Positions 21,965-57,987 of a DNA stretch of 58,018 bases are shown one piece after another. Source of the stretch: a virus (taxonomy: Duplodnaviria > Caudoviricetes); IMG/VR virus record IMGVR_UViG_3300032335_001124, positions 1 to 58,018 of that record. One strand, 5' to 3'. The notes under the pieces are model-generated. The model did no database searches, had not been told where the DNA came from, and was given only the letters and a program-made list of their open reading frames with translations. How positions within the stretch are numbered: the first letter of the stretch is position 1; each line of letters starts with the position of its first letter. Position numbers and translations under genes: made by a program.

Positions 21965-22882
21965 TTAAGCGGCGTCTAAGAACAAGAGCTTCTGACGGAA
22001 AGCGTCAGGGCTCATTTGACTCAGATAACGCCAAGCTTGCTCGGGATTCTGATTCATGGTTTGGGAGAAACCATTCCACTGAGTGTCAGGATCGTTGCGA
22101 ACTGCGCCTGCAGAAGCAGGAACAGCAGGCATGTCATAACGAGGTTGATAAGCTGCTTGCTGAGCAGGATAACCAGAGTTATCTGCATCTACTGGATACA
22201 CTTCGGTGAAGAACCGGTTGGTGTAATCAGCTAGTTGATCAGGATCAGTAAGAATATGCTCCATTGCAGCGCCACGTGTGGCGATGGAGTTCATATTTTC
22301 GTTCTGAGCAATCAGAGCGTCTTCGAGAGTAACAGCATACTGATTAAGGATGCCGGGAGCCTCGATGCCGAAGTGATTAACGACTTGAGCGCTTGCGGGG
22401 CTTAGCTGGGGGGCTTGGCTGCGCCCCGTAGAAGCCTGAGAGGAAGCTTGGGTCGTAGAGACGTTGTTGGAGTAAGTCGGGGCTGCCGTAGGCGCTTGGT
22501 ACGCCCATGGTTGGGCCTGTAAAGGCTGACTGTACTGAGGAATAGCCTGTTGCGTCGTCGCGTATTGTGGAGACGGTGCTGTTTGGCTGGGGAGTGGTGA
22601 CATCCTGGACACCACCCGCTCCAGGCTGCCCATTGCTGCTTCCCACGGATTGTTCGGGGAGTAAGCGGACGGAGACTGGTTGTACTGGTTGCTGGTAGAA
22701 AGGACCGAACCCTGTGTTGCCTGCGACGGCATTTGGGCTGTAGGTACCGAAGCTACCGCCGGGGTACTGGTTTGCGCCACCCACTGCGGGTAAGCGGTTG
22801 AGCCCTGGTCCATTGCTGGCGCCGCCGAGGGGGCTGCTGCCGCTACCGGGCTCGGGATCGAAGCTTGGATCTGCTGGCTCAT
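21965..22882 (-). CDS. putative capsid scaffolding/assembly protein
   Basis: Lies between portal and MCP; P/Q/A/S-rich disordered N-terminus and helical C-terminus. Confidence 0.6.
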   Translation of the reverse strand: MSQQIQASIPSPVAAAAPSAAPAMDQGSTAYPQWVAQTSTPAVASVPTAQMPSQATQGSVLSTSNQYNQSPSAYSPNNPWEAAMGSLERVVSRMSPLPSQTAPSPQYATTQQAIPQYSQPLQAQPWAYQAPTAAPTYSNNVSTTQASSQASTGRSQAPQLSPASAQVVNHFGIEAPGILNQYAVTLEDALIAQNENMNSIATRGAAMEHILTDPDQLADYTNRFFTEVYPVDADNSGYPAQQAAYQPRYDMPAVPASAGAVRNDPDTQWNGFSQTMNQNPEQAWRYLSQMSPDAFRQKLLFLDAA

Positions 22883-24611
22883 AGCTACCCGAGTAGGTTA
22901 GTTCTTGCGCGAGGTGGTCAAACGTCCTGTATAACAGGGGCGTTATGTTTAATCTAGGGTCAGCCCCTAAGGGTTGATCCGGGGCGAGAGGATGTGGCGT
23001 TTGCAACATCTGTGATAATAATACTAAAAATTGTTGCATTGCGCTTTGAGTTTGTTGGATCATCCTGAAAGGAAATCCTTTTAACATTTCTTCTCGCTCA
23101 GTATCCGTCTTATCCGGGAATAAATAACGTAAAGCTTCGACACTGTCAACTCCTAATTCCTGCAAATTTCGGACAACAATAGACTTTTGGTTTATGTCGT
23201 AGGCCGTGTCCTCATAGACATCGCCTTGGAAGCGGTACGCAACAGTACGATCTCCATCTGGAGGTAAACCAAAAACACCACGTGGGACTGCAGAAGTTGA
23301 AAGCGCTTCTTGCATCATCTGTTTTAGTTTTTGGTCAAACTTTTGCTGTTCTACTTCAAAGCGAATTGTCTCTTCAGATGAATCATCGGCAACAGGTTTA
23401 GGCTTTTTGAGCTTAACAACAGCGGCAAAACTATCTTTAAAAGTTTCTTCTTGGTGGTAGAGAATCATCTCCAACAACTTACAGAACCCGTACACCAAGA
23501 AACTTTTATTTTTTCTTAGTGCTGTGGCTTGAGCGCGACCCATCAAACCCTTAATTTCTGTGGCAGTGGCACCAGCAGAAACTGAAATTTCATCAACACC
23601 TCCTAATGCTGTCCGAATTTCTTCACGCAGCATTAAAGCCCATCGGTTCATGTCCCCGTTAACAGGGTCTGGTGTCATGTAACCAACACGATCCGAAGGC
23701 TCGACGTTGGCAATAATTCGAGGGACTCTCAGCCCGCCCATCAAACCACTGGAACCAAAAGGCTCGCTTACTCGTGTCGAGGGGGTATCGCGACCAGCAA
23801 ATCCACTTTGACTACTAATTGTTGGACGGAAAGTGCGATCAGAGTCGCTAGCTTCGACAAGATCACTACGAGGACGCGAACTAATAAGTGTCGGATTACC
23901 AAAAAATTCAATATTTTTAGCAATGTTCGTATTTAAGGTGTCATGAAGAACAATTTGTTCCATAAAAGGTTCAAATTCGCCTTCACCAGAAGTACCACTA
24001 CTGTCTGGTTTGTTAAGAACCTCAACAGCAGGTATAAATCCAAGTGTATTTTCTCGCGTATTTCTTGAAGTGACGAGTCCTCCTGGCTCCAGGTCAAAAC
24101 TCAACTCTGTATTAGACTCAAATTCAGATATACGTTCTTCGGTAATAGAAATTCGGACATAGCGTTCGTTTAAACCTGCTGTGTCAGAAGGTAAACCAAT
24201 GTTAGAACTACGAATTTTATATTTGTAGATTATTACAACTTCATCTAAGTTTCCGTTTACATCGTGGTAAACACGATACTGATCTTTAGAAAAAAAGTAT
24301 ATTTGATACTTTAATTTGGGGTCAGGTCGAAAATAAAATAAACCACATCCGTCGATTAAAAAATTACGAATAATCGAAGGAAAACGAATATCAATTTTAT
24401 TTAAAGTAATCAAGCTATCTAAAAATTTAGATCTAGCTTTATAAGTGTCTTGTTCACAATAAAAAGTCAAGCCCTTCTTAATCATCAACAGCGTCATTTG
24501 CTGGATGTGACTAAGAACGACTAAAGTAGACGCTTGCTTGGATCTATCTTGAGTCCGCGAAGCCTCAAGAATTTCTTGAAAGCGTTGACGGACTCCGATC
24601 TGGTCGGCCAT
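22377..24611 (-). CDS. putative portal protein with a long low-complexity C-terminal tail
   Basis: Size and position between terminase and scaffold; LGFIPAVEV.N and SA.ATATEIK resemble portal motifs. Confidence 0.7.
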   Translation of the reverse strand: MADQIGVRQRFQEILEASRTQDRSKQASTLVVLSHIQQMTLLMIKKGLTFYCEQDTYKARSKFLDSLITLNKIDIRFPSIIRNFLIDGCGLFYFRPDPKLKYQIYFFSKDQYRVYHDVNGNLDEVVIIYKYKIRSSNIGLPSDTAGLNERYVRISITEERISEFESNTELSFDLEPGGLVTSRNTRENTLGFIPAVEVLNKPDSSGTSGEGEFEPFMEQIVLHDTLNTNIAKNIEFFGNPTLISSRPRSDLVEASDSDRTFRPTISSQSGFAGRDTPSTRVSEPFGSSGLMGGLRVPRIIANVEPSDRVGYMTPDPVNGDMNRWALMLREEIRTALGGVDEISVSAGATATEIKGLMGRAQATALRKNKSFLVYGFCKLLEMILYHQEETFKDSFAAVVKLKKPKPVADDSSEETIRFEVEQQKFDQKLKQMMQEALSTSAVPRGVFGLPPDGDRTVAYRFQGDVYEDTAYDINQKSIVVRNLQELGVDSVEALRYLFPDKTDTEREEMLKGFPFRMIQQTQSAMQQFLVLLSQMLQTPHPLAPDQPLGADPRLNITPLLYRTFDHLAQELTYSGSYEPADPSFDPEPGSGSSPLGGASNGPGLNRLPAVGGANQYPGGSFGTYSPNAVAGNTGFGPFYQQPVQPVSVRLLPEQSVGSSNGQPGAGGVQDVTTPQPNSTVSTIRDDATGYSSVQSAFTGPTMGVPSAYGSPDLLQQRLYDPSFLSGFYGAQPSPPAKPRKRSSR

Positions 24612-28170: not shown

Positions 28171-30702
28171 TTAGTACTCTATTGAATAATTGCCTCGCCT
28201 TTGTAAATAAGTTATTAAATGCGTGTATGCGTCTAAAAGGTCGTCGTGCGACGTTGCCCCCACATTTATAATCTGATCAAACAACGCATCAAATTTTCTA
28301 TATCTGTTAAACACAATTTTTTTATTTTCTAGCAAACCTAGCGTCCCTCTAAAACGAGCTATTTTATCTCCTCTAAAACCGTTAACTTCATGAATATGTA
28401 AATTACTCAATCCCCTCTCATTTAACAAAACTCTTCTAAGGTCCGCCGCTAAACTCGCTTGGTAAGCAACTGACTCAACTACTAGCGTAACCGTAGAATA
28501 AGTCGGAAAATACGTATCGTTCTGAAAAGATAAGATTCCCCATTCAAGTAGCATATCGCACAGCAAATCTATTTTTTCTAAATTTCCAATAGACCGACAT
28601 TGGTGAGAATCAATAATGAAGTATTTGTCTTTAAGCCTTCCGCCTAAAACAAAAGCTGTATAGTCGCTGGTTTCATTTCTACTTGCGGATAAATCAATAC
28701 CGATAGCCAGCGAATCAAATTCAGTTTCAACTTCAGCTCGAACAAGCAAGTCTGGAGAAACAATTAAATCCGTGGTTAACACCGGCTGTTGCTGGTACTG
28801 GAAAGCAAATGCCACAGGGTCGAGTTCTTTCTGACCGAGTAAGTACTGAACACTCCACTGCTCAGGCCAATAACTTACGGGGTTGCCTTGATTGTCGTAA
28901 GTGACAGCTTCTTGTGTCACTTGTTTCCAATTTTTTTCCGGCGCAAACATTGTTTTATGTATATCTAACGGGTGAAAACGTGTACCTAAACAAATAGCTC
29001 TACCCCCTTCAAAAATAATTGGTGCGATAACAGATGACCAGTTGTTGTTCATTTCATCTCTAATAGCAGGGTTTCGTATATCGGCGCTGCTCTTGATGGG
29101 GTCGTCGATGAAACAGTTGCTTACAACAAATCCATTCGCAATAAAATTATGATCTGGATGGTCTATTTCAAGGTCATAGACAATGTGCGTTCCTCCGCTA
29201 ATTTTTTCAACTCCGGAAACGGTGAGGGTCTCCCAGCTTTGTCTGTAACCTGATGGTGAGCCACATGGCATTGACGGCAAAGCGTTATAAGATTGCAAAA
29301 AATGTTGTTTGACCGATCGTGATCTATGTGATGAACACACAGGTTTGTTCGCACTGTCCCGTCTTTTGTAGATAACTTCTTCTCCTTCGTATTGCAACCG
29401 ACACAGATGAAACTGTCCCGATTTAAAACTATCTTCCTCTGTTTTTTGAAGTCTCCTATATAACCCCCATGCTGGTAATTTGGGTTGTCCACACCGGTCA
29501 TTTTTTTGGAATGATTTAAATCTGCACACTGGCGAGAACAAAACTGTGTCGTATGCGATGTTGGGCGAAACCTTTTGTTGCAATACAGACACACCTGAGG
29601 TTTTAAAATTTGCTTCACCTGCCCCGCACAAGTCCGAGAACAACACAGAATTTTTTGATCGGTGCTTAATCTCTGAGCTAAACGGGAAGACATAACCGTG
29701 AATATCTCCTGACAACAGGGGCATTGAATCTCTACTTGAAATTTTCCTAGTTTTTGCCAACAAGTTGTACAGATTCTTTGTGTGCGTTGTTTTGCCTGAC
29801 CGCAACTCAAACAAACTTTTAGTTGATTCGCAGGCGGATACTCCGATAAGGGTTTGCCCTGTACTAATATCTCCCGCCCATTCGTACCCTTGGTCTGTCG
29901 TAAGGAAAGGATGCTCGGGAGTTGCGGAAATATAACGGTTATCTGTTGTTCTAATTCGAACAATTTTTGAGGAACAACGCCGTGTAGCTGCTGCCACGTC
30001 GCTCCAATCAATTTGATGTGTTTTTGAGTTTCTGACAGCAATTTGGAAGCGTCCTGGGTCTGCATAAATTTTTTTAATTGGCTGTTCGCCTTTATCTGTC
30101 AAGATTAGTGTATCGCCCGTAAGACACAAGTGTGCGCGTTTTGAGGTAATTGATCCTCTAAGACCTGCAGCGCGTAATGTGAATTCTTCGTCACCTACTC
30201 TAGGAATACCTGCGTATTCAAAATCAATAGACCAACCAACGTCACTTTGCATACCTGGTTTAAGCCTGCAATTAGGAAATATTTTTTTAAACTCAACTGA
30301 GTCAACAATTTGTTTGATAATTCGACTTTTAGGAATAGCAGTAGCAATGTTGTAAGAAATGTAAATTATCTGTAAGGGCATTTTTGCTGCTGTATGTCTT
30401 CCTATACACCACGCAGTAAACATATTTAACACGGTACTTTTCGCTGAACCCCTGGGGCTTAGTATATCAAGGTTTGATCCTGCTATATCTAATAAGTACT
30501 TATTGCTTTCATTTGTTATCAAGTGTGTATACCACTCCAACATATGTCTTGCTGGAGGTTTATCTAAAAGAGTACAAAACGTTTGAAAATCACCCGCTGC
30601 TTTGGTGTAAATAGAGTTCTCTCTTGTGCTCGAATCTTCAACAGCGCGAACAGCATTTAACTGAGCCCGGCGACGATAAGCAAAAGTTTCCCGGCTAGGC
30701 AT
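28171..30702 (-). CDS. terL: terminase large subunit (506 aa after intein removal)
   Basis: Walker A PRGSAKST, Walker B L|CFIDD, GTRFH, RNase H-like GIDLS..DYT and HDDLLDA. Confidence 0.92.
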   Translation of the reverse strand: MPSRETFAYRRRAQLNAVRAVEDSSTRENSIYTKAAGDFQTFCTLLDKPPARHMLEWYTHLITNESNKYLLDIAGSNLDILSPRGSAKSTVLNMFTAWCIGRHTAAKMPLQIIYISYNIATAIPKSRIIKQIVDSVEFKKIFPNCRLKPGMQSDVGWSIDFEYAGIPRVGDEEFTLRAAGLRGSITSKRAHLCLTGDTLILTDKGEQPIKKIYADPGRFQIAVRNSKTHQIDWSDVAAATRRCSSKIVRIRTTDNRYISATPEHPFLTTDQGYEWAGDISTGQTLIGVSACESTKSLFELRSGKTTHTKNLYNLLAKTRKISSRDSMPLLSGDIHGYVFPFSSEIKHRSKNSVLFSDLCGAGEANFKTSGVSVLQQKVSPNIAYDTVLFSPVCRFKSFQKNDRCGQPKLPAWGLYRRLQKTEEDSFKSGQFHLCRLQYEGEEVIYKRRDSANKPVCSSHRSRSVKQHFLQSYNALPSMPCGSPSGYRQSWETLTVSGVEKISGGTHIVYDLEIDHPDHNFIANGFVVSNCFIDDPIKSSADIRNPAIRDEMNNNWSSVIAPIIFEGGRAICLGTRFHPLDIHKTMFAPEKNWKQVTQEAVTYDNQGNPVSYWPEQWSVQYLLGQKELDPVAFAFQYQQQPVLTTDLIVSPDLLVRAEVETEFDSLAIGIDLSASRNETSDYTAFVLGGRLKDKYFIIDSHQCRSIGNLEKIDLLCDMLLEWGILSFQNDTYFPTYSTVTLVVESVAYQASLAADLRRVLLNERGLSNLHIHEVNGFRGDKIARFRGTLGLLENKKIVFNRYRKFDALFDQIINVGATSHDDLLDAYTHLITYLQRRGNYSIEY
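29116..30126 (-). mobile_element. intein (337 aa) inserted at the terminase Walker B strand
   Basis: Block A CLTGDTLILT, block B ATPEHPFLT, blocks F/G VYDLEI..DHNFIANGFVVSN followed by Cys+1. Confidence 0.92.
29163..30065 (-). CDS. Zn-finger/HNH homing endonuclease encoded out of frame inside the intein
   Basis: Multiple CxxC motifs, FCSRQC, G..NPNY..G and RD.F.CVGC...VHHIDHDRSNN...NLITLCRQCH...H. Frame is offset by 1 from terL. Confidence 0.85.
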   Translation of the reverse strand: MQTQDASKLLSETQKHIKLIGATWQQLHGVVPQKLFELEQQITVIFPQLPSILSLRQTKGTNGREILVQGKPLSEYPPANQLKVCLSCGQAKQRTQRICTTCWQKLGKFQVEIQCPCCQEIFTVMSSRLAQRLSTDQKILCCSRTCAGQVKQILKPQVCLYCNKRFRPTSHTTQFCSRQCADLNHSKKMTGVDNPNYQHGGYIGDFKKQRKIVLNRDSFICVGCNTKEKKLSTKDGTVRTNLCVHHIDHDRSNNIFCNLITLCRQCHVAHHQVTDKAGRPSPFPELKKLAEERTLSMTLK

Positions 30703-38969: not shown

Positions 38970-39365
38970 TTATTGTGGAGATAATCCGTATTTTGTTTTG
39001 ACGTTATAACGAGCTAAAGCAAAACAGTTAACAAACGGGTATCTTTTTGTTTCGTTACCCATAGGATCAATAATAATCCTGCCGTTATAAGGGTTTTCCA
39101 GCTTACACCGATCTAGTTCCTGGTTATACACTTCTGAATATTTAATCGAACGTTGACCCTCTTCTCTAACATGCTTTAGAAACGAATAAGTAAATAAAGA
39201 TGCAAAAAGAAGTAAAACCCAAAAAGTTATAAAAATTAGAAGAAGACCCAAGAGATTAGGGGATCGGTACGCTAGAGCAGTTATAGGAAGATCTTTGCTT
39301 TTGAGATCGATTTTAATGTCGTTAGTCATGTGAGTTAGGTGTGAACCATACGTATAGTAGCACAT
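38970..39365 (-). CDS. single-pass membrane protein
   Basis: Hydrophobic stretch LLGLLLIFITFWVLLLFASLF. Likely start MTNDIK, preceded by TTGACA-16-TACTAT. Confidence 0.55.
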   Translation of the reverse strand: MCYYTYGSHLTHMTNDIKIDLKSKDLPITALAYRSPNLLGLLLIFITFWVLLLFASLFTYSFLKHVREEGQRSIKYSEVYNQELDRCKLENPYNGRIIIDPMGNETKRYPFVNCFALARYNVKTKYGLSPQ

Positions 39366-40056: not shown

Positions 40057-40942
40057 TAAAACAGTTAATCTTATCTGGTTTGGCGAAAGCGCAAACTTGT
40101 GGGGTAGGAGTTGGATTGAAGAACTACTAAAAGATGTGGAATTGGTGTACCACTACCCAAAAAACAAAGAGGGTGCGGTTTTACTGGACAATTGCATTGT
40201 GGTCACAAACAATAGCGAGTCATACGAATACATAGAAGCGTTAGATCGAGCTAATAAAAAGTATGCGGTGATTCTGTTATCGGACGAAACTTTAACAGAA
40301 CCCATGTTTTACTTATCAAGCCCTAACTGTATATACGCGGCACGGAACTATTTTAGTCCGCGTTACTGGCGCGACGATAAAGTATTTACTTTTGGCCTCG
40401 GTCACAGGCACAAATTCGAACACTACGTAACTCCGAAAGTATTAGCTTCAAAAAGACGACGTACGTGGAGTTTTGCAGGTTCTTTAAAAGCAGACCGAAT
40501 ACACGCATTTGATTGTTTTAAAGATATAAAACCCTACCAATTAAACATAATTGAGTTTTTTAACGATTCAAAAGGGCTGACTACGGAAGAGTATGCAGAT
40601 TTGTTGTCAGATACAGTTTTTTGTTTGGCGCCACAAGGTGGTTGTAATCTAGATTCTTTTCGAATCTACGAGGCTTTAGAGGCTGGAAGCATACCCGTGG
40701 TACTAAAACAGACGGAATATCAAAAAATACACCCTTCGTACTGGCATTCTATTTTTATAGGCGAAAAAGATATGCCTTTTGTGTGTGCGTCATCTTGGGA
40801 AGAAGCAGCACAAATTTGTAAAAAAATAATTCAAGAAGATCGTGCGAACGAAATTCAGAAAAAATGTAGTGTTTTCTGGGACTCGTGGAAACTTAAATGG
40901 CGTTCTACCTTTGCCACGCGGACCGAGCAGCTCAAAAAATAA
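40046..40942 (+). CDS. exostosin-like (GT47) glycosyltransferase
   Basis: WSFAGS, FCLAPQG...DSFRIYEALEAGSIPV. Likely ATG at 40046. Confidence 0.8.
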   Translation: MESNKTVNLIWFGESANLWGRSWIEELLKDVELVYHYPKNKEGAVLLDNCIVVTNNSESYEYIEALDRANKKYAVILLSDETLTEPMFYLSSPNCIYAARNYFSPRYWRDDKVFTFGLGHRHKFEHYVTPKVLASKRRRTWSFAGSLKADRIHAFDCFKDIKPYQLNIIEFFNDSKGLTTEEYADLLSDTVFCLAPQGGCNLDSFRIYEALEAGSIPVVLKQTEYQKIHPSYWHSIFIGEKDMPFVCASSWEEAAQICKKIIQEDRANEIQKKCSVFWDSWKLKWRSTFATRTEQLKK

Positions 40943-41268
40943 TAAACGCTAAAAATAAGAATTAAATTTTTTTAACCAGGGCCTGTCAATATATTGCTAT
41001 ACTCAGGTTTGGGGTCACTTCACCCCGCTGATTGTGAAAGGGTTCTCGCCGCCCCCGTCGTATAAGTGCTGTATATAAAAAAAAGGCCGGATTGCGGGCA
41101 GCTAATTGGTACATAGTGGCAGCCTAAGTAACACATAACAATCGCGCTAAGTGTTACTTAGTGTGCGCTTAGTTATCTAATAGGCATATAGTAGTACCTA
41201 TGTACTATCCCGCTTTATTAGTTAGTTTGAACTAGCAAGCGAGGGCGGGCACGTTAAGATTTATTTCA

Positions 41269-41375
41269 ATTAACCAAAGCTTAACCTTGGTGTGATATAC
41301 GCGCGGGCGTGCGCGTTCGTTGTATTACCTGACCGCTCAAAGGTTAATCAGAATTTAATCAGAATTTAATCAGAA
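41269..41375 (+). promoter_or_regulatory. Pho-box-like 11-bp-period repeats (YTTAAYYW-N3)
   Basis: attaacca-aag-cttaacct at 41269-41287 and (g/t)ttaatca-gaa x3 at 41343-41375. Confidence 0.5.
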
Positions 41376-41446
41376 GATAATCTGTTCTTATCCTTACCTG
41401 GTGGCTTATGGCTTACCTTTAGTTCATCGATCCCAAGGGACCGATT

Positions 41447-41458
41447 GAACCTAGACAA
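41447..41458 (+). promoter_or_regulatory. boxA-like antitermination element 1 (GAACCTAGACAA), preceded by a boxB-like hairpin
   Basis: One mismatch to the recalled cyanobacterial rrn boxA GAACCTTGACAA. Confidence 0.55.
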
Positions 41459-41614
41459 TCAAATAGATTCAAGCCAAGCCGTGAAACGTTCACCGGTCTT
41501 GCCACGGGTTCCCCGTCTCGCCATAGTTAAACCTATGAGATGAGACCGGATCCTAGGACAGGATTGTTATAACTATGCGAGAAGCAGCTTAAGTCTATTT
41601 GATTCTAGGTTTGT

Positions 41615-41626
41615 GAACCTTGACAA
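41615..41626 (+). promoter_or_regulatory. boxA-like antitermination element 2 (GAACCTTGACAA)
   Basis: Exact match to the recalled picocyanobacterial 16S-23S ITS boxA. Confidence 0.65.
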
Positions 41627-42287
41627 TCCGATTAGTTCACCCGTAGCTAGATAGTTAGCACGGATAGCCTACCCTATGGGTGAACCTATCTACATAGCTT
41701 CCTAACTATAACTAACTGAATGTGACAATCAGTTATTTATATTTACAGCGTAACAGTTTGGATCTGGCACTGTATCCGAATCTAGTAGGGCTTTGGTATT
41801 AACCAATGGAGATTCACCTAGACCAAACTGTAAACATATAGTGGCAGCATATTAACTCTAACAACTACTACAGCTGAACCATACAGTTCGCAACTGTATA
41901 TTCTCCCACGTCTCCTTAAGTGGATGCCAGCGTGGCAACTGAATACATAAGATTGTAGGCTTACATTCTTAAAGGGGGGTCGATATCCGCATCGACACCA
42001 GTGGCCTTGCGGCTACTGAATACAGAAGAATGTAAGGCCTCACAGTGTATGAGTTAGCTACCCTTTGCAGTTCATTCTGTAACGTGTAGCTAACTCTATG
42101 CACTGTTTAAGTTTATAAGTTAATTAATCTGAGTGCATCTATTAGGTGCCATGGTTAATGTAACTAACTAAGATCTTAGTTTAATATAGGATCATTTGTG
42201 ATCTTATTAGATCATCATGCTTAAAAGTTCTCCTCCTGTGTATTACATAGGATGAGAACCTTTTGGTTCTCTATCCACTAAATCCAG

Positions 42288-42605
42288 GTGTACATCATGA
42301 CTGATTTCGACTACGATTTGGCCCATGAGTTAAAGCTTCACGCAGACAATTTAAGTGTTCATTTTAATAGTGTAGGTAAAACTTTAAGTAAATTTTGGCG
42401 TAAGGGTTCTTTTGATTACGAACGCGCATCTGGTTACATCTACCGAAACCTAACTATTCCAGCCGCTAAAGATTACCACAGTCTATGTGGTTCATTAACA
42501 GACTCTTGGTTTGGAATGTTTCCTATTCCAGAGCGTAAGTATGTTACAGAGAAGATCTTGATGGAATTCTTAGATGAGTTTCATTCAGGTAACTTTTGGG
42601 AATAA
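42288..42605 (+). CDS. early hypothetical protein
   Basis: First ORF after the non-coding region; EL.L.ADN...KG.FD...A..AAKDY pattern seen in phage early genes. Confidence 0.65.
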   Translation: MYIMTDFDYDLAHELKLHADNLSVHFNSVGKTLSKFWRKGSFDYERASGYIYRNLTIPAAKDYHSLCGSLTDSWFGMFPIPERKYVTEKILMEFLDEFHSGNFWE

Positions 42606-50381: not shown

Positions 50382-51608
50382 TTGCTACAATCCCTACAAC
50401 ATCACATCACGCTCATGAACGACACTTTATTCGCTTCTCTCCAAACCTTTCGCGCAAACCTAAACGCTGCCACGCTCGAACGTGAGTCTGTGGTTGATGG
50501 TCTGTTAGCAACCCTAATAAGCAAGCAAAACGCTTTCTTGTTAGGAGAACCAGGTACAGGTAAGTCTGATCTGGTACGGAACATATGTAACGGGATTTCT
50601 GGGGCCAACTACTTTGGTTATCTTTTAACCCCAACCACCGATCCTTCCGAGATCTTCGGCCCCGTGGCCGTTACCAAGCTTCTTAATGACGAGTACACAC
50701 GCGACGTTAAAGGGTATCTTCCAGACGCTCACATCGCATTCACGGATGAGTTATTTAGAGGATCATCCGCTATTCTGAACTCACTGTTGACTCTTTTAAA
50801 CGAGCGCACTTTCAACAATGGAAAAGAAGTTATCCACACTCCGATTCAATCTATTGTTGCAGCAACAAATTCCTGGCCGGATGAAGAATCTCTCCAAGCA
50901 TTTGCAGACAGATTTCTGTTCCGACCCACGGTGGAATTTCTTAAGAAAAGCACATCGAAACGGATCTTGGATGGTTGGGCTCTTGGAGTCGAGGAACGAC
51001 CTACCGTAGGCACACACTTAAGTCTTGATACCCTTACACAGTTACAGGACGCCGCTAAACAAATTAAAGTCTCAGATGATTTCGTAGATAAATATGGCGA
51101 AGTATGGGATATGTTAAGTGCCCGTGGTATTACAATTAGCGATCGGCGTCGTGTGCAGGTACTTAAGTTCTTAAGAGCTTGGGCAATTGTTCAGGGAGAT
51201 GAAGAACTTGTACCAGAGCATATGCACGACTCTTTGGTTCATATTGTATATAGAACACCCGATGATAAGGAAACTATTAAAGAGATCCTTGATCAGGTGA
51301 TTCCCACGGCTAACAAAATATTTGCCGATGCTAAACGAGCTGCTTCTGGGATAATGACGGAGTACTCAACTACGACTCATAAAGCTCAACTACGTAGTAG
51401 TGGAATCGCTGAGTTAAATGATTTTGTTATTCAATTACGTAAGTACCATAAAGATATGCAGACAGTCAGAGACAAAGTAGGAGAAGTTATTGACGGAAAT
51501 AAATATCGTATGAATTTGAGCACAAGACAGACGGGCGTAAAATTACAGAAACAGCTCGAAAATTATTGCGAAACGCTTACCGTTGCAATTAGCGACATAA
51601 GCAAGTAG
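50382..51608 (+). CDS. MoxR-family AAA+ ATPase, RavA-like (likely start MNDTLF)
   Basis: GEPGTGKS, T.PSEIFGP, FTDE.F..SSAILNSLL..LNER, ATN, DRF and SDRR motifs. Confidence 0.9.
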   Translation: MLQSLQHHITLMNDTLFASLQTFRANLNAATLERESVVDGLLATLISKQNAFLLGEPGTGKSDLVRNICNGISGANYFGYLLTPTTDPSEIFGPVAVTKLLNDEYTRDVKGYLPDAHIAFTDELFRGSSAILNSLLTLLNERTFNNGKEVIHTPIQSIVAATNSWPDEESLQAFADRFLFRPTVEFLKKSTSKRILDGWALGVEERPTVGTHLSLDTLTQLQDAAKQIKVSDDFVDKYGEVWDMLSARGITISDRRRVQVLKFLRAWAIVQGDEELVPEHMHDSLVHIVYRTPDDKETIKEILDQVIPTANKIFADAKRAASGIMTEYSTTTHKAQLRSSGIAELNDFVIQLRKYHKDMQTVRDKVGEVIDGNKYRMNLSTRQTGVKLQKQLENYCETLTVAISDISK

Positions 51609-51633
51609 TCTAAGCGCGTAGCATCACATCAAC

Positions 51634-51792
51634 ATGACTGTCAAAACTGAAGACTTAAATCTTGTTCGAAAAAGACTGGCAGACTTTATAGAGTCTGCGG
51701 AGGTAATCAGCCCTTCAAGTGCTTACGACAAACTTGTAGCTCTATTAGTCGATTTAGATCAAGCCATCATCAGATCCAAAAAACAAACATGA
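51634..51792 (+). CDS. small helical protein (52 aa)
   Basis: Hand translation; ATGA overlap with the VWA gene. Confidence 0.5.
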   Translation: MTVKTEDLNLVRKRLADFIESAEVISPSSAYDKLVALLVDLDQAIIRSKKQT

Positions 51793-53339
51793 AACTAAAC
51801 AAACACACTGAATTCGTGAGGCTGACTCACAACGAACCTCTAACGCTAGCTTGCTCAGCACTTGCAGATTTTCTTTGGGAAGACTTTGTTGTAGACGGGA
51901 AACCTTCTGTAACTTATCTCATTGATCACTACAACATTAAAAAACTATCCCGCTTTGGTAAAGAGCTTTTCGAACGGTTGTATAACGCAGACGACGTAAA
52001 CTGGACCATTACAGAGCAAGCTTACGAAGATTATTTCAGAGCAAAACAAAATGGAGATGACGTTAAATTTCCAGAAGGATATAAGCCTGAGAATGGAATG
52101 TGGTATGCGATTATGTCTGATATTAGTCTTGCCGCTGCTTGGCCTCATCTACTAGCTAGAAGTGTAGGCAATCAATTTAACGCAGGTAACAACGCAATCA
52201 ATATTTTAAACCAACTGTCTGAAGTCATAGAAGAGTTAATTGAGAAAGATTTATTGGATGTTCAACTTGTATTCAACGCGGGAGACAAATTAGATGAGTT
52301 AAGAAAACAATTTCAAGATGCTCAGGATAAAGGTGATAAAGCTGCAATGGATAAAGCTCGTGCTGAGGGTAAAGAAATTAATCAAGCAATTCAAAACGCC
52401 ATAGAAGAACTTAAAGATCAAATAGGATCGCAGACCAGCAGGATTGTAGATAAAACCAATAAAGATTGCGACGAAACAAACAGTTCAATTTCGACTTTGT
52501 TTGGAAACGAAGAGGGTAAGGGGACCCACGGTACAGACTTGCAAACTAAGAGAGACTTAGCGGAAAAGTTACAAAGAAACCCCAAGCTAAAAGCACTGGC
52601 AAAGAAGTTAGGTGCTCTCCGCAAAGTATGGCAAGAACGAAAACGAGCGAAGATAACAAAGTCAACTTACGAAGCAATTAACGGAGCGGTTTTTTCAAAT
52701 GACATTACAAGAGCCTTTCCTGTAGAACTGGCATTAGCTGGAAGTAACGAGGGAAAACTTTTATTTGCGTTGAAGTACTCACAGAAAACTTTGCTTACAA
52801 AAGATTACAACGCTCACCGAAAAGATATAGGTAAAGGTCCAATAATTATGTACGTAGATACCTCAGGTTCTATGGGTGGAGAACCAGAAGTCTGGTCAAA
52901 AGCTATTTCGTTTGTAATTTCTGAAGAAGCCTTAAAGGAAAATAGAGAAGTTCAGATCTATTTATTTGATACACGAATTGAACAGGGTGTGATCTTGAAG
53001 GGAAATAGAAAAACAAACAAAGAATTACTTGACTTTGTAGGCACTTGGCATCTTGGCGGAGGTACAAGTTTTAACTCCGTAATCTCCCACGCGGTAGAAT
53101 TAACAAAGACCCAGGATCGTTCAGACATTCTTTTGATTACGGATGGTTATTCAGACGTTCGAGACTCTAATATGAGAGCGCTTCGGTCCCTCAAACAAAG
53201 GACAGGAGCCATGTGGAGTACAATCTGTATCGGAACACAGGTTCCGGATATAGTGCATGAGTTTTCAGATGAAGCTTATGCGGTCGACATTTCTGCTCAC
53301 GCAGAAACCATTGACGTTATCCAAAAATGTATTAGGTGA
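51789..53339 (+). CDS. VWA domain protein, ViaA-like
   Basis: MIDAS motif VDTSGSM, GGGTSF and ITDG. Confidence 0.9.
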   Translation: MKLNKHTEFVRLTHNEPLTLACSALADFLWEDFVVDGKPSVTYLIDHYNIKKLSRFGKELFERLYNADDVNWTITEQAYEDYFRAKQNGDDVKFPEGYKPENGMWYAIMSDISLAAAWPHLLARSVGNQFNAGNNAINILNQLSEVIEELIEKDLLDVQLVFNAGDKLDELRKQFQDAQDKGDKAAMDKARAEGKEINQAIQNAIEELKDQIGSQTSRIVDKTNKDCDETNSSISTLFGNEEGKGTHGTDLQTKRDLAEKLQRNPKLKALAKKLGALRKVWQERKRAKITKSTYEAINGAVFSNDITRAFPVELALAGSNEGKLLFALKYSQKTLLTKDYNAHRKDIGKGPIIMYVDTSGSMGGEPEVWSKAISFVISEEALKENREVQIYLFDTRIEQGVILKGNRKTNKELLDFVGTWHLGGGTSFNSVISHAVELTKTQDRSDILLITDGYSDVRDSNMRALRSLKQRTGAMWSTICIGTQVPDIVHEFSDEAYAVDISAHAETIDVIQKCIR

Positions 53340-56091: not shown

Positions 56092-57987
56092 ATGCACATC
56101 AACTACATAACAACACCCGATACGTACACCGAAGCCATTGGAATTCTTACCCAACATAAAAAGATTTGCCTTGACTTCGAAACAACAGGGCTACAAGCAA
56201 GATTGGCTAAACCGCGTTTACTCCAGTTGTGTGACAGCAATCCAACTGATGAGGATCGTATTGTTTATGTTTTTGACTTATTTAAAGTTCAAGCTGACAG
56301 CGCGTTAAAGGAGTTAATAGAGTCCCGCGAAATGATAATTGGTCAAAATTTAAATTTTGACTTGCAGTTCTTATATGAGTTAGGAATTGATTTTAAAAAC
56401 AAGATTTATGATACTTACATTGCTGAGCGTGTATTGCGTTCAGGTTTTAAAGAAAAAAAGATTAGTCCTCAAGCTCAAAAACCTTACTTTGCGGATTTGT
56501 CGTGCAGTTTAAAAGCCATCGCACTAAGGCGTCTTAACATTGAACTCGATAAAGAGCAGCGTCGAACAGATTGGTCTCAACCCGAACTAACGTTAGAACA
56601 AATAGAGTATGCAGCAAAAGACGTTGACGTACTGCCACGCATTGCCGCAGATCAACTGGAAGAGCTGCGTGAAGAAAATTTAACTCCTATTTATAGCGTC
56701 GAGTCGCAGTGTGTTCGCCCTGTGGCTTTAATGTGTCACACAGGATTTGGGGTTGATGTAACGAAATTAATGGTGTTGCGTAAACGTATTGAGGATGAAC
56801 TGGTTGCAAAAACCGAACAGTTTATTAACGAACTTGACTCTAGACTTCCAGAAGATTGCAAACTTCCAAGGTCTAGTGACGGTTCTATTGCTGTTGGAAA
56901 AAAACCAAAGAAAGAATTCAACCCCGGATCAACAGCCCAGATTGTCAATGTCTTTAGTTCTTGCAATATCGAGTTGCCTAAAGATGCCACGACGGGCAAG
57001 ACCACGCTTAACCAAATCGCCCTTTCTGAGTTTGATAGCGAAGACTCAACCTTGATTCTGTACCGAGAACGAACTAAAATTGAGACTCGATTAGAGCATG
57101 TAAATAAATTAATTAGTAATATAAACCCTGTAACCCACAGGATACACTCTGGTTACAACCAAGTTGGTGCAAACTCCGGACGTTTTACCAGCAATGGATC
57201 CCCTAAAACAACTAAAACACAGGGAAAAACAGTTTATGCAGTAAACATTCAGCAAGTTCCAAGGTCAAAAGATTTTAGAGAATGCTTTATTGCCGCTCCA
57301 GGTTATAAGTTGGTTATTTGTGACTGGGCTCAAATCGAGTTACGCCTCGGTGCGGAGCTCATAAACATAGCTCAGATGAAAGAAGCTTTTGTTAAAAACA
57401 TCGACTTACACACCCTGACTGCCAGCCTGATATATAAAATTGACATTTCTTTAGTTACAAAAGAGCAGAGGCAAGAAGGTAAGACTCTGAACTTTGCTCT
57501 TTTATACGGTATGGGTTATCGAAAATATAAAACCTATGCTGCTCAAAGCGGGAAGATGATTAGTTTATCGGAAGCTAAAATTGCCCACGCAGCATTTCAC
57601 CTGGCTTACCCTCGCTTAAGGGCGTGGCACCAAGAAAGAGCATCTCTGGTACAAGAGGGTTGGGCTTATATCCGAACAGCTTGCGGAAGACGACGGTTAC
57701 TAAGCTACGATGACGCGACAATGATGTGCAGCGCCAACACACTAATCCAAGGAAGCGGGGCTGATATTTTAAAGTTGGCAATTGCGGATTTAAACAAACA
57801 CTTAAATGAAGATGTTCGACTGGTCGCTGCTGTCCACGACGAATTAGTTTTGGAAGTAAAAGAAGAATTAGCTGAGACTTATAAAGAGATTCTTGAGACA
57901 ACCATGATTAAATCGGCTGAAACAGTTTTAAAATCAGTTCCTTCTTCTGCTGACGCTTCTGTAGGAAGTTCATGGGCCGCAAAATGA
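56092..57987 (+). CDS. polA: family A DNA polymerase with 3'-5' exonuclease (no 5'-3' exonuclease)
   Basis: ExoI DFETTG, ExoII NLNFD, ExoIII YAAKD; motif A DWAQIELR, motif B KTLNFALLYG, motif C VHDEL. Confidence 0.95.
   Translation: MHINYITTPDTYTEAIGILTQHKKICLDFETTGLQARLAKPRLLQLCDSNPTDEDRIVYVFDLFKVQADSALKELIESREMIIGQNLNFDLQFLYELGIDFKNKIYDTYIAERVLRSGFKEKKISPQAQKPYFADLSCSLKAIALRRLNIELDKEQRRTDWSQPELTLEQIEYAAKDVDVLPRIAADQLEELREENLTPIYSVESQCVRPVALMCHTGFGVDVTKLMVLRKRIEDELVAKTEQFINELDSRLPEDCKLPRSSDGSIAVGKKPKKEFNPGSTAQIVNVFSSCNIELPKDATTGKTTLNQIALSEFDSEDSTLILYRERTKIETRLEHVNKLISNINPVTHRIHSGYNQVGANSGRFTSNGSPKTTKTQGKTVYAVNIQQVPRSKDFRECFIAAPGYKLVICDWAQIELRLGAELINIAQMKEAFVKNIDLHTLTASLIYKIDISLVTKEQRQEGKTLNFALLYGMGYRKYKTYAAQSGKMISLSEAKIAHAAFHLAYPRLRAWHQERASLVQEGWAYIRTACGRRRLLSYDDATMMCSANTLIQGSGADILKLAIADLNKHLNEDVRLVAAVHDELVLEVKEELAETYKEILETTMIKSAETVLKSVPSSADASVGSSWAAK

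What the first reader, a model, noticed from the sequence alone, without database searches (positions are those of the whole stretch)
41422..42106. About 700 nt of ORF-free, densely base-paired sequence: candidate novel large ncRNA or sRNA array
Seen stems: 41448-74/41587-611, with inner caagccg..cggtcttg, acggg/cccgt, catagtta/taactatg and a possible ccggtct/agaccgg pseudoknot; 41635-46/41674-85; 41713-19/41729-35; 41753-67/41818-31 with inner gaatct/agattc; 41881-99; 41957-70/42026-40 enclosing gtcgat/atcgac and cagtggcc/ggctactg; and 42042-61/42086-106. G-U pairs and bulges favour RNA-level structure on the plus strand. I recognise no tRNA, tmRNA, RNase P or ribozyme consensus. Inference: first-expressed phage RNAs acting as decoys, anti-defence RNAs or scaffolds. 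With the boxA and Pho-like motifs this is the best candidate for an undescribed system here.
Basis: partly seen in the sequence, partly recalled or inferred. Interest (0 to 1): 0.85.

Follow-up and report, generated by a model that had tools for sequence, protein, structure and literature searches.

The report
Structured leader RNA of a cyanophage
A gene-free stretch at the head of the early genes of an uncultured freshwater cyanophage folds into hairpins that related phages keep through compensating mutations, so it probably makes a new structured RNA, but nothing yet shows what that RNA does.

Summary
The gene-free gap is larger than reported: 40943-42296, about 1.35 kb. Region 41422-42106 folds far better than shuffles (z -8.4 on +, -5.6 on -). 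It holds the two most structured of 289 plus-strand windows of the record. There is no credible Rfam hit, no tRNA, and no ORF of 60 aa or more under table 11 or TAG=Q (one 69-aa frame under table 4).

The phage is a distant relative of Synechococcus phage S-EIVl. Eight distinct versions of the 5' core (41426-41690) came from lake viromes and metagenomes. In them, 97% of cells pair and 12 of 83 pairs carry compensatory changes (0 of 500 shuffles reach this). G.U cells outnumber A.C cells 64 to 7, so the plus strand is the folded one.

A conserved -10 hexamer sits 7 nt before the first hairpin, behind an array of cyanobacterial Pho-box-like repeats.

The 3' part is mosaic. One hairpin cassette is swapped in 2 relatives. 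The 41954-42043 hairpin occurs only in the window. One relative carries a small gene between 46-nt repeats.

My reading is a promoter-proximal structured leader or ncRNA with conserved cores and exchangeable hairpin modules. Transcription and function are not shown, and the decoy or anti-defence idea is untested.

The parts
40995..41003 (+). candidate extended -10 promoter element TGCTATACT, just after the stop of the glycosyltransferase gene
   Evidence: read from the sequence; invariant in the 6 close sequences of A7; not found by the two-hexamer scan; inference only
41043..41086 (+). conserved block TTCTCGCC..CTGTATATAAAAAAAAGG of unknown role
   Evidence: kept at about 80% in L007 and L013, where the flanks do not align; single copy in the window
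41270..41299 (+). candidate promoter P2: TTAACC-18-GATATA overlapping two Pho-box-like octamers (ATTAACCA, CTTAACCT)
   Evidence: the homologous place in L004, L026 and L007 reads TTGACA-17-TATTTA; octamer pattern match
41299..41316 (+). G+C-rich hairpin of alternating purine-pyrimidine sequence
   Evidence: the only terminator-like site in the scan; alternating CG/TG tract kept in all 8 relatives and expanded in L013
41343..41394 (+). array of 4-5 octamers at 11-bp period (GTTAATCA, TTTAATCA, TTTAATCA, GATAATCT, CTTATCCT): cyanobacterial Pho-box-like
   Evidence: (family D1); relatives keep TTAACC-type octamers with 3-nt linkers; consensus and 8+3 architecture from passages of PMC1906773
41414..41419 (+). 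candidate -10 hexamer TACCTT (P3), 7 nt before hairpin H1
   Evidence: TACCTT in 7 of 8 relatives and CATGCT in L003; L003 and L029 have TTGACA 17 bp upstream
41426..41445 (+). H1: small 5' hairpin, GAAA loop in 4 of 8 sequences
   Evidence: helix 1 of A9: 8 pairs, 3 with compensatory changes, 90.6% of cells paired
41446..41613 (+). D1: 168-nt domain. A 26-pair outer stem (41446-41474 / 41587-41613) encloses either a four-way junction (41478-41497, 41498-41562, 41576-41586) or a continuous rod
   Evidence: covariance model R1 scores 185-202 bits on + against 12-37 on -; junction model 99.3% paired, rod model 97.6% paired
41615..41628 (+). unpaired linker GAACCTTGACAATC, a direct repeat of the 5' arm of D1 (41447-41460)
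   Evidence: 2 matches in the window, both here; the repeat extends to 24 nt at 92% in L030; near-invariant in A9
41630..41690 (+). H2: hairpin with a conserved 7-nt loop (G-N-ACGGA)
   Evidence: helices 7-8 of A9; by my reading of A7/A9, the basal stem GATTAG/CTATC becomes AAACAA/TGTTT in L028 and L031 and AATAG/CTATT in the L004 group
41703..41745 (+). Hx: A/U-rich hairpin with a U-rich 3' side; possible weak terminator
   Evidence: inverted repeat I1; C-G becomes G-C and a mismatch is repaired in L028 and L031 (my reading); a hairpin in the same place in the L004 group
41753..41831 (+). H3: exchangeable hairpin cassette
   Evidence: present in window, L003, L012 and L029; replaced by unrelated hairpin-forming sequence in L028 and L031 between identical flanks
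41876..41953 (+). second conserved core: H5 (41881-41899), H6 (41906-41935) and the motif AACTGAATACATAAGA (41937-41952)
   Evidence: nearly invariant in both relative groups; H6 is CCACAC/GTGTGG in relatives and CCACG/CGTGG in the window; 5 close relatives read TTGACA-18-TAAGAT here; a related motif also occurs in L013 and L005
41954..42043 (+). 90-nt hairpin insertion specific to the window, partly duplicating 41934-41957
   Evidence: absent from L003, L009/L012, L028, L029 and L031, which are 5 of the 5 close relatives covering the place; direct repeat D3; core pattern found in 0 viral contigs
42042..42106 (+). H8: long near-perfect hairpin followed by TTTAAGTTTAT
   Evidence: I2; invariant in close relatives; the L004 group and L013 carry a different branched domain (D2) at this position
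42175..42296 (+). conserved 5' UTR of the first early ORF, with two mutually exclusive hairpins (42227-42259 and 42254-42271) and AGGTG before ATG 42297
   Evidence: 78-88% identity even in the L004 group; hairpins read from the sequence

Best explanation
Region 41426-42106 is the structured, non-coding 5' part of the rightward (plus-strand) early transcription unit of an uncultivated freshwater cyanophage of the S-EIVl lineage.

Proposed layout:
- A host-type promoter starts the RNA at the first base of hairpin H1. Its -10 is TACCTT at 41414-41419. It is preceded by 4-5 Pho-box-like octamers at 11-bp spacing, and in some relatives by TTGACA.
- Then follow the 168-nt domain D1, a conserved 14-nt linker that repeats D1's 5' arm, hairpin H2 and an A/U-rich hairpin Hx.
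- Next comes one exchangeable hairpin cassette, then a second conserved core (H5, H6 and the AACUGAAUACAUAAGA motif).
- Long hairpins follow (H8, plus a window-specific insertion), and then the conserved 5' UTR of the first ORF.

I propose that it works at the RNA level and mainly in cis. The conserved cores would be binding or switching elements that set how much transcription, started in response to host phosphate status, reaches the early genes. The long perfect hairpins would serve as processing and stabilising sites or weak terminators. The variable hairpins would be peripheral modules gained and lost by recombination.

Shown here: the structure, the folded strand, conservation with compensatory change, absence of coding potential, absence from known families, and module exchange.

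Inferred: the promoters and the start site, Pho control, transcription itself, and every functional step.
For: Fold excess: z -8.4 on +, and the top two of 289 plus-strand windows lie here.

Covariation: on a MAFFT alignment of 8 distinct versions at 77-97% identity, 83 consensus pairs have 97.0% of 662 cells paired. 12 pairs and 27 cells carry changes on both sides. 0 of 500 shuffles reach these values, and slid controls give at most 3 pairs.

Strand: 64 G.U against 7 A.C cells; the same pairs read on the minus strand are 88.4% paired. Model R1 scores 185-202 bits on + and 12-37 on -.

Promoter context: the -10 TACCTT is kept 7 nt before H1 in 7 of 8 sequences. TTGACA lies 17 bp upstream in L003 and L029. 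The last Pho-like octamer sits 19-20 nt upstream in all. The octamer-pair pattern has 7 matches in the window against 2.1 expected, and 4 of the 7 lie in this gap. The consensus CTTAACCT and the 8+3 architecture come from PMC1906773 (passages).

Orientation: genes on both sides are on the plus strand.

Wider pattern: gaps at the same place in more distant relatives are also structured. L005 has z -5.2 on + against -2.2 on -. L013 has z -6.6 on +. A different branched domain D2 at the H8 position keeps 12 of 49 pairs through compensatory changes between the L004 group and L013.
Against: No direct evidence of transcription. The four runs laid gave only short contigs, and DNA carry-over in RNA libraries is not excluded.

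The generic promoter scan found no more sites than in shuffles (3 against 4.0). My promoter calls rest on conservation and on relatives with better hexamers.

There are only 8 distinct sequences, all from one narrow lineage, and the consensus structure was derived from the same alignment on which pairs were counted.

D1 is absent from L005, L013 and S-EIVl. Whatever it does is therefore not essential to the wider group.

H8, H3 and the window-specific hairpin have no covariation support.

L013's gap is as structured on the minus strand (z -6.3).

The cis-regulatory mechanism is a guess from position. The long distance (about 870 nt) to the first ORF, and a possible separate promoter near 41924-41953, fit independent small RNAs equally well.
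Confidence: 0.45

Rival explanations
1. Independent trans-acting RNA(s). The stretch from the start near 41426 to Hx (about 320 nt: H1-D1-H2-Hx), and a second unit from a promoter at 41924-41953 through H8 (about 70-160 nt), would be discrete early or phosphate-starvation-induced phage sRNAs. They would bind a host or phage protein or RNA as a regulator, sponge or decoy.
For: Each conserved core is preceded by a promoter-like element and followed by a hairpin with a U-rich flank. Invariant unpaired stretches could be binding sites: the linker 41615-41628, the G-N-ACGGA loop of H2, and the AACUGAAUACAUAAGA motif. Module turnover between near-identical phages resembles fast-evolving host-interaction loci. 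One rRNA-depleted metatranscriptome contig covers exactly 41613-41674 and then runs into what I recall to be an Illumina adapter, which would mean a short insert with defined ends.
Against: No canonical intrinsic terminator was found after either unit. No target or partner is known. No complementarity of the linker to other places in the window was found. Expression is not shown. The single short contig could come from any fragment.
Confidence: 0.22
2. An ordinary regulatory junk-yard. The region would be a stack of promoter plus stem-loop (terminator or stabiliser) cassettes left by repeated gain and loss of small early genes. It would be comparable to the promoter-early stem-loop (PeSL) cassettes of T4-type phages, with no RNA function beyond termination, insulation and mRNA end protection.
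For: Cassettes are swapped, inserted and deleted between phages that are 93-97% identical around them. L030 carries a 308-nt insertion with an ORF of about 90 aa between two 46-nt direct repeats inside the array. Several TTGACA-17/18-TAnnnT pairs occur in relatives. PeSLs are described as sigma70-like promoters plus stem-loop terminators that mediate shuffling (abstract of PMC2839356).
Against: The modules are not a dispersed repeat family: no copy of any of them lies elsewhere in the 58-kb record. D1 is a 168-nt domain with about 60 pairs and an invariant junction and linker, far beyond what a terminator needs. D1, H2 and H5-H6 are conserved where the neighbouring sequence has diverged beyond alignment. 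Only one terminator-like site was found, and it lies upstream at 41299-41316.
Confidence: 0.18
3. A DNA-level element: a replication origin or other protein-binding region. The 11-bp repeats would be iterons, and the hairpins would form on single-stranded or supercoiled DNA. Alternatively, a physical genome end.
For: Tandem 11-bp repeats, A/T-rich tracts and an alternating purine-pyrimidine tract occur together. Contigs of three relatives start or stop inside this gap: L004 and L005 start at the place homologous to about 41254, and G003 ends near 42300. The upstream part 41005-41335 is almost invariant yet not structured on the plus strand (z -0.86 on +, -3.58 on -).
Against: The strong excess of G.U over A.C pairs and the compensatory changes point to one folded strand, the sense strand of the flanking genes. 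The repeats fit the cyanobacterial Pho-box consensus in two different sequence versions and keep their distance to a -10 hexamer. Other relatives' contigs run straight through the gap (L003, L007, L009, L028, L029). GC skew shows no turning point here.
Confidence: 0.1

Closest known systems
PeSL (promoter-early stem-loop) regulatory cassettes of T4-type phages (PMC2839356, abstract read)
   Same: Promoter-like elements combined with stem-loops in an early region. The site carries insertions, deletions and replacements between near-identical phages. One relative has a small gene flanked by direct repeats of the cassette.
   Different: Not a repeated motif family within the genome. There are no genes between the modules in the window. 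The conserved cores are large, branched and covarying rather than simple terminator hairpins.
Large ornate phage- and lake-associated RNAs (GOLLD, ROOL; papers seen only as search listings)
   Same: Several hundred nucleotides long, phage-borne, recovered from lake metagenomes, with conserved cores and variable peripheral stems.
   Different: No match to any of the 4227 Rfam models, even at E<=10. Conservation is patchy, and whole hairpins are replaced by unrelated sequence, which argues against one tightly packed fold. Narrow distribution: 10 contigs including the window.
Structured early leaders of lytic phages: tandem early promoters plus RNase III hairpins of T7, and the cis-acting put antiterminator RNA of HK022 (both recalled; no call)
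   Same: Position between early promoters and the first early gene, on the sense strand. Long irregular hairpins, possibly several promoters in tandem.
   Different: The leader is much longer, and D1 has no described counterpart. RNase III cleavage and antitermination are untested.
Cyanobacterial Pho-regulon promoters (SphR/PhoB boxes; PMC1906773, passages read)
   Same: Three or more tandem 8-bp repeats resembling CTTAACCT with 3-bp linkers upstream of a -10 hexamer (41343-41394).
   Different: The array precedes a non-coding structured RNA of a phage, not a phosphate-acquisition gene. Binding by SphR is untested. The closest good octamer ends 19-20 nt from the -10, further than the 10 bp that the paper gives for E. 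coli.

Membership tests
Any Rfam 15 family (including riboswitches, ribozymes, 6S, tmRNA, RNase P, GOLLD/ROOL/HEARO, cyanobacterial Yfr and cyanophage motifs as far as Rfam holds them) | score at or above the family's gathering threshold | tested here: not met
   the only match in the window is a group I intron at 19065-19337; 9 matches at E<=10 in 40900-42350, all far below threshold
tRNA / tmRNA | cloverleaf or tmRNA detected by ARAGORN | tested here: not met
   0 genes in the window
PeSL-type mobile regulatory cassette | a conserved promoter plus stem-loop motif repeated at many intergenic sites of the genome | tested here: not met
   no copy of any gap module elsewhere in the 58-kb record. 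The record is only 72% complete
PeSL-type mobile regulatory cassette | cassettes mark the borders of insertions, deletions and replacements between close relatives | tested here: met
   H3 swap, 90-nt insertion; gene insertion between 46-nt repeats in L030
PeSL-type mobile regulatory cassette | stem-loops act as transcription terminators and promoters are active | not testable with these tools
   only one terminator-like site was predicted, at 41299-41316
Cyanobacterial Pho box (SphR/PhoB site) | at least three tandem 8-bp direct repeats near the CTTAACCT consensus, separated by 3-bp linkers, upstream of a promoter | tested here: met
   41343-41394. Relatives read GTTAACCG aac TTTAACCA aac CTTAACCG, or CTTAACCT aac CTTAACGA. 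Definition from PMC1906773
Cyanobacterial Pho box (SphR/PhoB site) | bound by SphR, with transcription induced by phosphate starvation | not testable with these tools
   no host genome, protein or expression data available
Conserved structured RNA (generic criterion) | base pairs maintained by compensatory substitutions beyond what shuffled and slid controls give | tested here: met
   12 of 83 pairs, 0 of 500 shuffles, slid controls at most 3. Caveat: 8 sequences, and the structure was derived from the same alignment
Conserved structured RNA (generic criterion) | the region is transcribed | tested here: inconclusive
   only short contigs from RNA-labelled libraries; DNA carry-over not excluded

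The most novel reading that the evidence does not exclude
A phosphate-starvation-switched (host PhoB/SphR-driven) modular phage RNA of 0.7-0.9 kb. Its conserved cores (D1-H2, H5-H6) would act in trans on a host factor early in infection, as a sponge, decoy or anti-defence RNA. Its peripheral hairpins would be swapped as cassettes in an arms race. That would be a new class of phage RNA effector coupled to the nutrient status of the host. A further twist the data allow: D1 keeps two mutually exclusive folds (rod and four-way junction) in all 8 sequences and may be a switch.
Probability: 0.12. Interest if true: 0.85.

Novelty: new variant of a known kind. Interest (0 to 1): 0.55.

Why it matters
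Non-coding RNAs of cyanophages are almost unexplored, and nothing is known about gene regulation in the S-EIVl lineage, which is known mainly from lake metagenomes. If the reading holds, the head of the early operon would be controlled by a large structured RNA placed behind host phosphate-sensing sites. That would link the start of infection to the nutrient that most often limits lakes. The locus also shows structured RNA modules being exchanged like gene cassettes. It offers a defined 265-nt core with covariation support that can be tested directly by probing, pull-down and deletion. If it proves to be only a stack of terminators and promoters, it is an ordinary regulatory region of modest interest.

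Tried and rejected
- blastn of the gap against 50,697 phage records found no match.
- The D1 pattern occurs in 0 of the GTDB species genomes.
- Three further DNA-pattern scans of IMG/VR found only the same four contigs or none. The profile scan added one new locus, L013.
- Model R1 with filters off found no D1 in the gaps of L005 or L013. The best scores were 4.9 and 13 bits, the latter on the alternating GC tract. R1 found nothing in S-EIVl.
- The gap at the corresponding place of S-EIVl is only mildly structured, z about -3.1 on both strands, and gave no homology.
- Sequencing runs: 9 runs hold small shares of the words (0.08 or less). Four were laid. They gave short contigs over parts of 40932-42134 and some neighbouring genes. 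They show no strand, ends or level, and uncovered parts mean nothing. I do not count them as evidence of transcription.
- The two-hexamer promoter scan gave no excess.
- The GAACCTWGACAATC repeat as a phage promoter: only two copies, both here, and no usable -10 at the right spacing (sequence).
- A kissing interaction between the H2 loop (CACGG) and CCGUG of D1: perfect in 4 sequences but mismatched in the other 4, with no compensatory change (A9).
- Recoding: table 4 and TAG=Q open no convincing frame.
- GC skew gives no origin signal.
Full report
WHAT THE RECORD IS

The window is a linear IMG/VR virus record of 58,018 bp, estimated 72% complete.

Structural genes lie mostly on the minus strand. 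These include a large terminase at 28171-30702 and a portal-like protein at 22377-24611.

From 37990 onward the large ORFs (100 aa or more) run on the plus strand, apart from 38970-39365 and some overlapping minus-strand frames:
- two methyltransferases and a GT47-like glycosyltransferase, ending at 40942;
- then the gap;
- then many small ORFs, a MoxR-VWA pair, and a family A DNA polymerase at 56092-57987.

The portal-like protein matches only one of 50,697 phage records. That record is Synechococcus phage S-EIVl, a 79-kb phage from an Arctic lake, at 41% identity over 98% of the query. The host is therefore probably a freshwater picocyanobacterium. This is an inference.

THE OBSERVATION

The ORF-free stretch is larger than reported.
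- It runs from 40943 to the first early ORF, whose start is probably ATG 42297.
- It holds only five ORFs of 30-44 aa.
- Table 4 opens one 69-aa frame and TAG=Q opens none of 60 aa or more.
- One-base indels among relatives fall inside the only plus-strand small ORF (A9).

Region 41422-42106 folds with z -8.4 on the plus strand and -5.6 on the minus strand. In a GC-corrected scan of all 289 windows of 400 nt, the two most structured plus-strand windows of the whole record lie here. 41401-41800 ranks seventh. On the minus strand the region is not the top.

Rfam gives nothing credible and ARAGORN gives nothing.

RELATIVES

The following searches gave ten contigs including the window that hold the 5' core, with eight distinct versions at 77-97% identity:
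- searches with the first early protein;
- DNA patterns taken from conserved stretches;
- one metagenome scan.

They fall into two groups:
- a close group (L003, L009/L012, L028, L029, L031);
- a more distant group (L004, L026, L007/L030).

Two further relatives have the homologous first gene but not this core: L005 (65% protein identity) and L013 (50%). The core pattern is absent from the species-representative prokaryote genomes.

THE 5' CORE (41426-41690)

I aligned the eight versions with MAFFT, without reference to structure (A9). The RNAalifold consensus has 83 pairs.
- 97.0% of 662 cells form standard pairs.
- 12 pairs and 27 cells have changes on both sides.
- None of 500 column shuffles reaches either value, and sliding the partners by 1-3 columns gives at most 3 such pairs.
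- Caveats: few sequences, one lineage, and a structure derived from the same alignment.

The elements are:
- H1 (41426-41445), a small hairpin;
- D1 (41446-41613), with a 26-pair outer stem;
- a near-invariant unpaired linker (41615-41628) that repeats the 5' arm of D1;
- H2 (41630-41690), with a conserved 7-nt loop.

By my reading of A7 and A9, the basal stem of H2 changes from GATTAG/CTATC to AAACAA/TGTTT in L028 and L031 and to AATAG/CTATT in the L004 group.

The interior of D1 fits two mutually exclusive models in all eight sequences. One is a four-way junction (99.3% of cells paired). The other is a rod (97.6%). I cannot choose between them, and a switch is possible.

The folded strand is the plus strand.
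- There are 64 G.U cells against 7 A.C cells.
- The same pairs read on the minus strand are 88.4% paired.
- The covariance model scores 185-202 bits on + against 12-37 on -.

WHAT LIES UPSTREAM OF THE CORE

In all eight sequences a TAnnnT-type hexamer lies 7 nt before the first base of H1. It reads TACCTT in seven and CATGCT in L003. L003 and L029 also have TTGACA 17 bp upstream.

Further upstream is an array of octamers at an 11-bp period.
- The window has GTTAATCA, TTTAATCA, TTTAATCA, GATAATCT and CTTATCCT (41343-41394).
- L003-type relatives have GTTAACCG, TTTAACCA, CTTAACCG and GTTAATTG.
- The L004 group has CTTAACCT (CATAACCT in L004 itself) and CTTAACGA.
- The last good octamer always ends 19-20 nt before the -10. 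The window gains one extra degenerate octamer and exactly one helical turn.

This is the architecture described for cyanobacterial SphR/PhoB sites: at least three tandem 8-bp repeats near CTTAACCT with 3-bp linkers (PMC1906773, passages). The octamer-pair pattern is enriched in the window, with 7 matches against 2.1 expected. Four of the seven lie in this gap.

A second promoter-like site lies at 41270-41299. It reads TTAACC-18-GATATA in the window and TTGACA-17-TATTTA in the L004 group. An alternating purine-pyrimidine GC hairpin follows it.

Region 40968-41220 is almost invariant among the close relatives but is not structured on the plus strand: z -0.86 on + and -3.58 on -. Its role is open. 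A block at 41043-41086 survives even in L007 and L013.

All promoter statements are inference. The generic scan shows no excess.

THE 3' PART (41691-42106) IS MOSAIC

- Hx (41703-41745) is kept, with a C-G to G-C change in L028 and L031.
- H3 (41753-41831) is present in four sequences. In L028 and L031 it is replaced by unrelated, also hairpin-forming sequence between identical flanks, although L028 is 97% identical to the window over 5 kb.
- Region 41832-41953, including H5, H6 and the motif AACTGAATACATAAGA, is the most conserved part. It is nearly invariant in both groups. H6 changes from CCACAC/GTGTGG to CCACG/CGTGG in the window. In the close relatives it reads as TTGACA-18-TAAGAT.
- 41954-42043 is a 90-nt hairpin found only in the window. 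It is absent from all 5 close relatives that cover the place. It is partly a duplication of 41934-41957 and was not found in other viral contigs.
- H8 (42042-42106) is invariant in the close group.

At the position of H8, the L004 group and L013 instead carry a branched domain D2 of about 180 nt. It is bounded by the same motifs, and 12 of its 49 consensus pairs are kept through compensatory changes.

In L030, a 308-nt insertion sits between two 46-nt direct repeats inside the array. It carries an ORF of about 90 aa with no Pfam match.

No module of the gap is repeated elsewhere in the record.

The gaps of L005 and L013 are also strongly structured: L005 z -5.2 on + and -2.2 on -; L013 z -6.6 on + and -6.3 on -.

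EXPRESSION

One run search and one laying were allowed.
- Nine runs held small shares of the words.
- The four runs laid gave only short contigs over parts of the gap and some neighbouring genes.
- The tool warns that DNA may be present in RNA libraries and that contigs show neither strand nor ends.
- One 81-nt contig of an rRNA-depleted metatranscriptome covers 41613-41674, from just after D1 into H2. It then continues into what I recall to be an Illumina adapter. This hints at a short insert with defined ends.

I treat all of this as too weak to count.

INTERPRETATION

The evidence supports a plus-strand RNA structure that selection maintains. It starts at a conserved promoter-like site and lies between co-directional genes at the head of the early operon.

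It does not support one uniform 700-nt RNA. There are two conserved cores, and hairpin modules around them turn over.

My best reading (0.45) is a structured leader that acts mainly in cis on transcription read-through, processing and stability of early transcripts, probably under host phosphate control.

The rivals are:
- a stack of promoter/terminator cassettes left by gene turnover, in the manner of PeSLs (PMC2839356, abstract) (0.18);
- a DNA-level element such as an origin or a genome end (0.10). This last is suggested by the 11-bp repeats and by three relatives' contigs starting or ending in the gap.

COMPARISON AND NOVELTY

The region belongs to no Rfam family. It fails the one testable defining feature of PeSLs, a dispersed repeat family. 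It meets the sequence definition of a cyanobacterial Pho-box array.

I found no paper describing non-coding RNAs or this region in S-EIVl-like phages. Two searches bear on this:
- S-EIV1 plus cyanophage: 30 papers, listing seen;
- cyanophage, noncoding RNA, early genes, Pho box: 3 papers, listing seen.

I rate it a new variant of a known kind: a phage structured leader or ncRNA, here modular and placed behind Pho boxes. Interest is moderate because the structure is well supported but expression and function are not.

Noticed in passing
window 19065-19337 (-): Group I catalytic intron, 73.4 bits against a gathering score of 50, full model length. It lies between minus-strand ORFs 18172-18939 and 19533-20423, so it probably splits a gene.
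   Followed up: no
window 28171-30702 (-): The 843-aa large terminase matches terminase profiles in two separated stretches (27-197 and 532-839). This leaves about 330 residues unexplained, possibly an inserted domain or an intein.
   Followed up: no
L030 722-1074 (minus strand of the locus): In one relative, a 308-nt insertion with an ORF of about 90 aa (no Pfam match) sits between two 46-nt direct repeats inside the hairpin array. It is a gene cassette captured in the leader.
   Followed up: partly
L004 735-915; L026 820-998; L030 1026-1205 (-); L013 3237-3424: A branched domain (D2) of about 180 nt replaces hairpin H8 in the more distant relatives. 12 of its 49 consensus pairs show compensatory change between the L004 group and L013.
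   Followed up: partly
window 41299-41316; L013 about 2790-2900: A tract of alternating purine-pyrimidine (CG/TG) sequence follows a promoter-like site in all relatives. It is expanded to about 100 nt in L013. It could form a hairpin or Z-DNA.
   Followed up: no
window 40968-41220: About 250 nt are almost invariant among six relatives that differ by 3-15% elsewhere, yet the stretch is not structured on the plus strand (z -0.86). A core at 41043-41086 is kept even in L007 and L013.
   Followed up: partly
L004 1; L005 1; G003 end (about window 41254 and 42300): Contigs of three relatives begin or end inside this gap, two of them at the same homologous position. Other relatives' contigs run through it. 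This could be an assembly break at a variable cassette or a physical genome end.
   Followed up: no
window 42227-42271: Two mutually exclusive hairpins share the segment GAGAAC in the conserved 5' UTR, just before the AGGTG and ATG of the first early ORF. This is a possible translational or attenuation switch (conserved).
   Followed up: no
window 22001-22400 (+), 24201-24600 (+), 20001-20400 (-): These are other strongly structured 400-nt windows in the GC-corrected scan, with z about -3.0 to -3.6.
   Followed up: no
window 50382-53339 (+): A MoxR-type AAA+ ATPase (bpMoxR domain, E 1e-57) is followed by a VWA-domain protein in the early or replication module.
   Followed up: no
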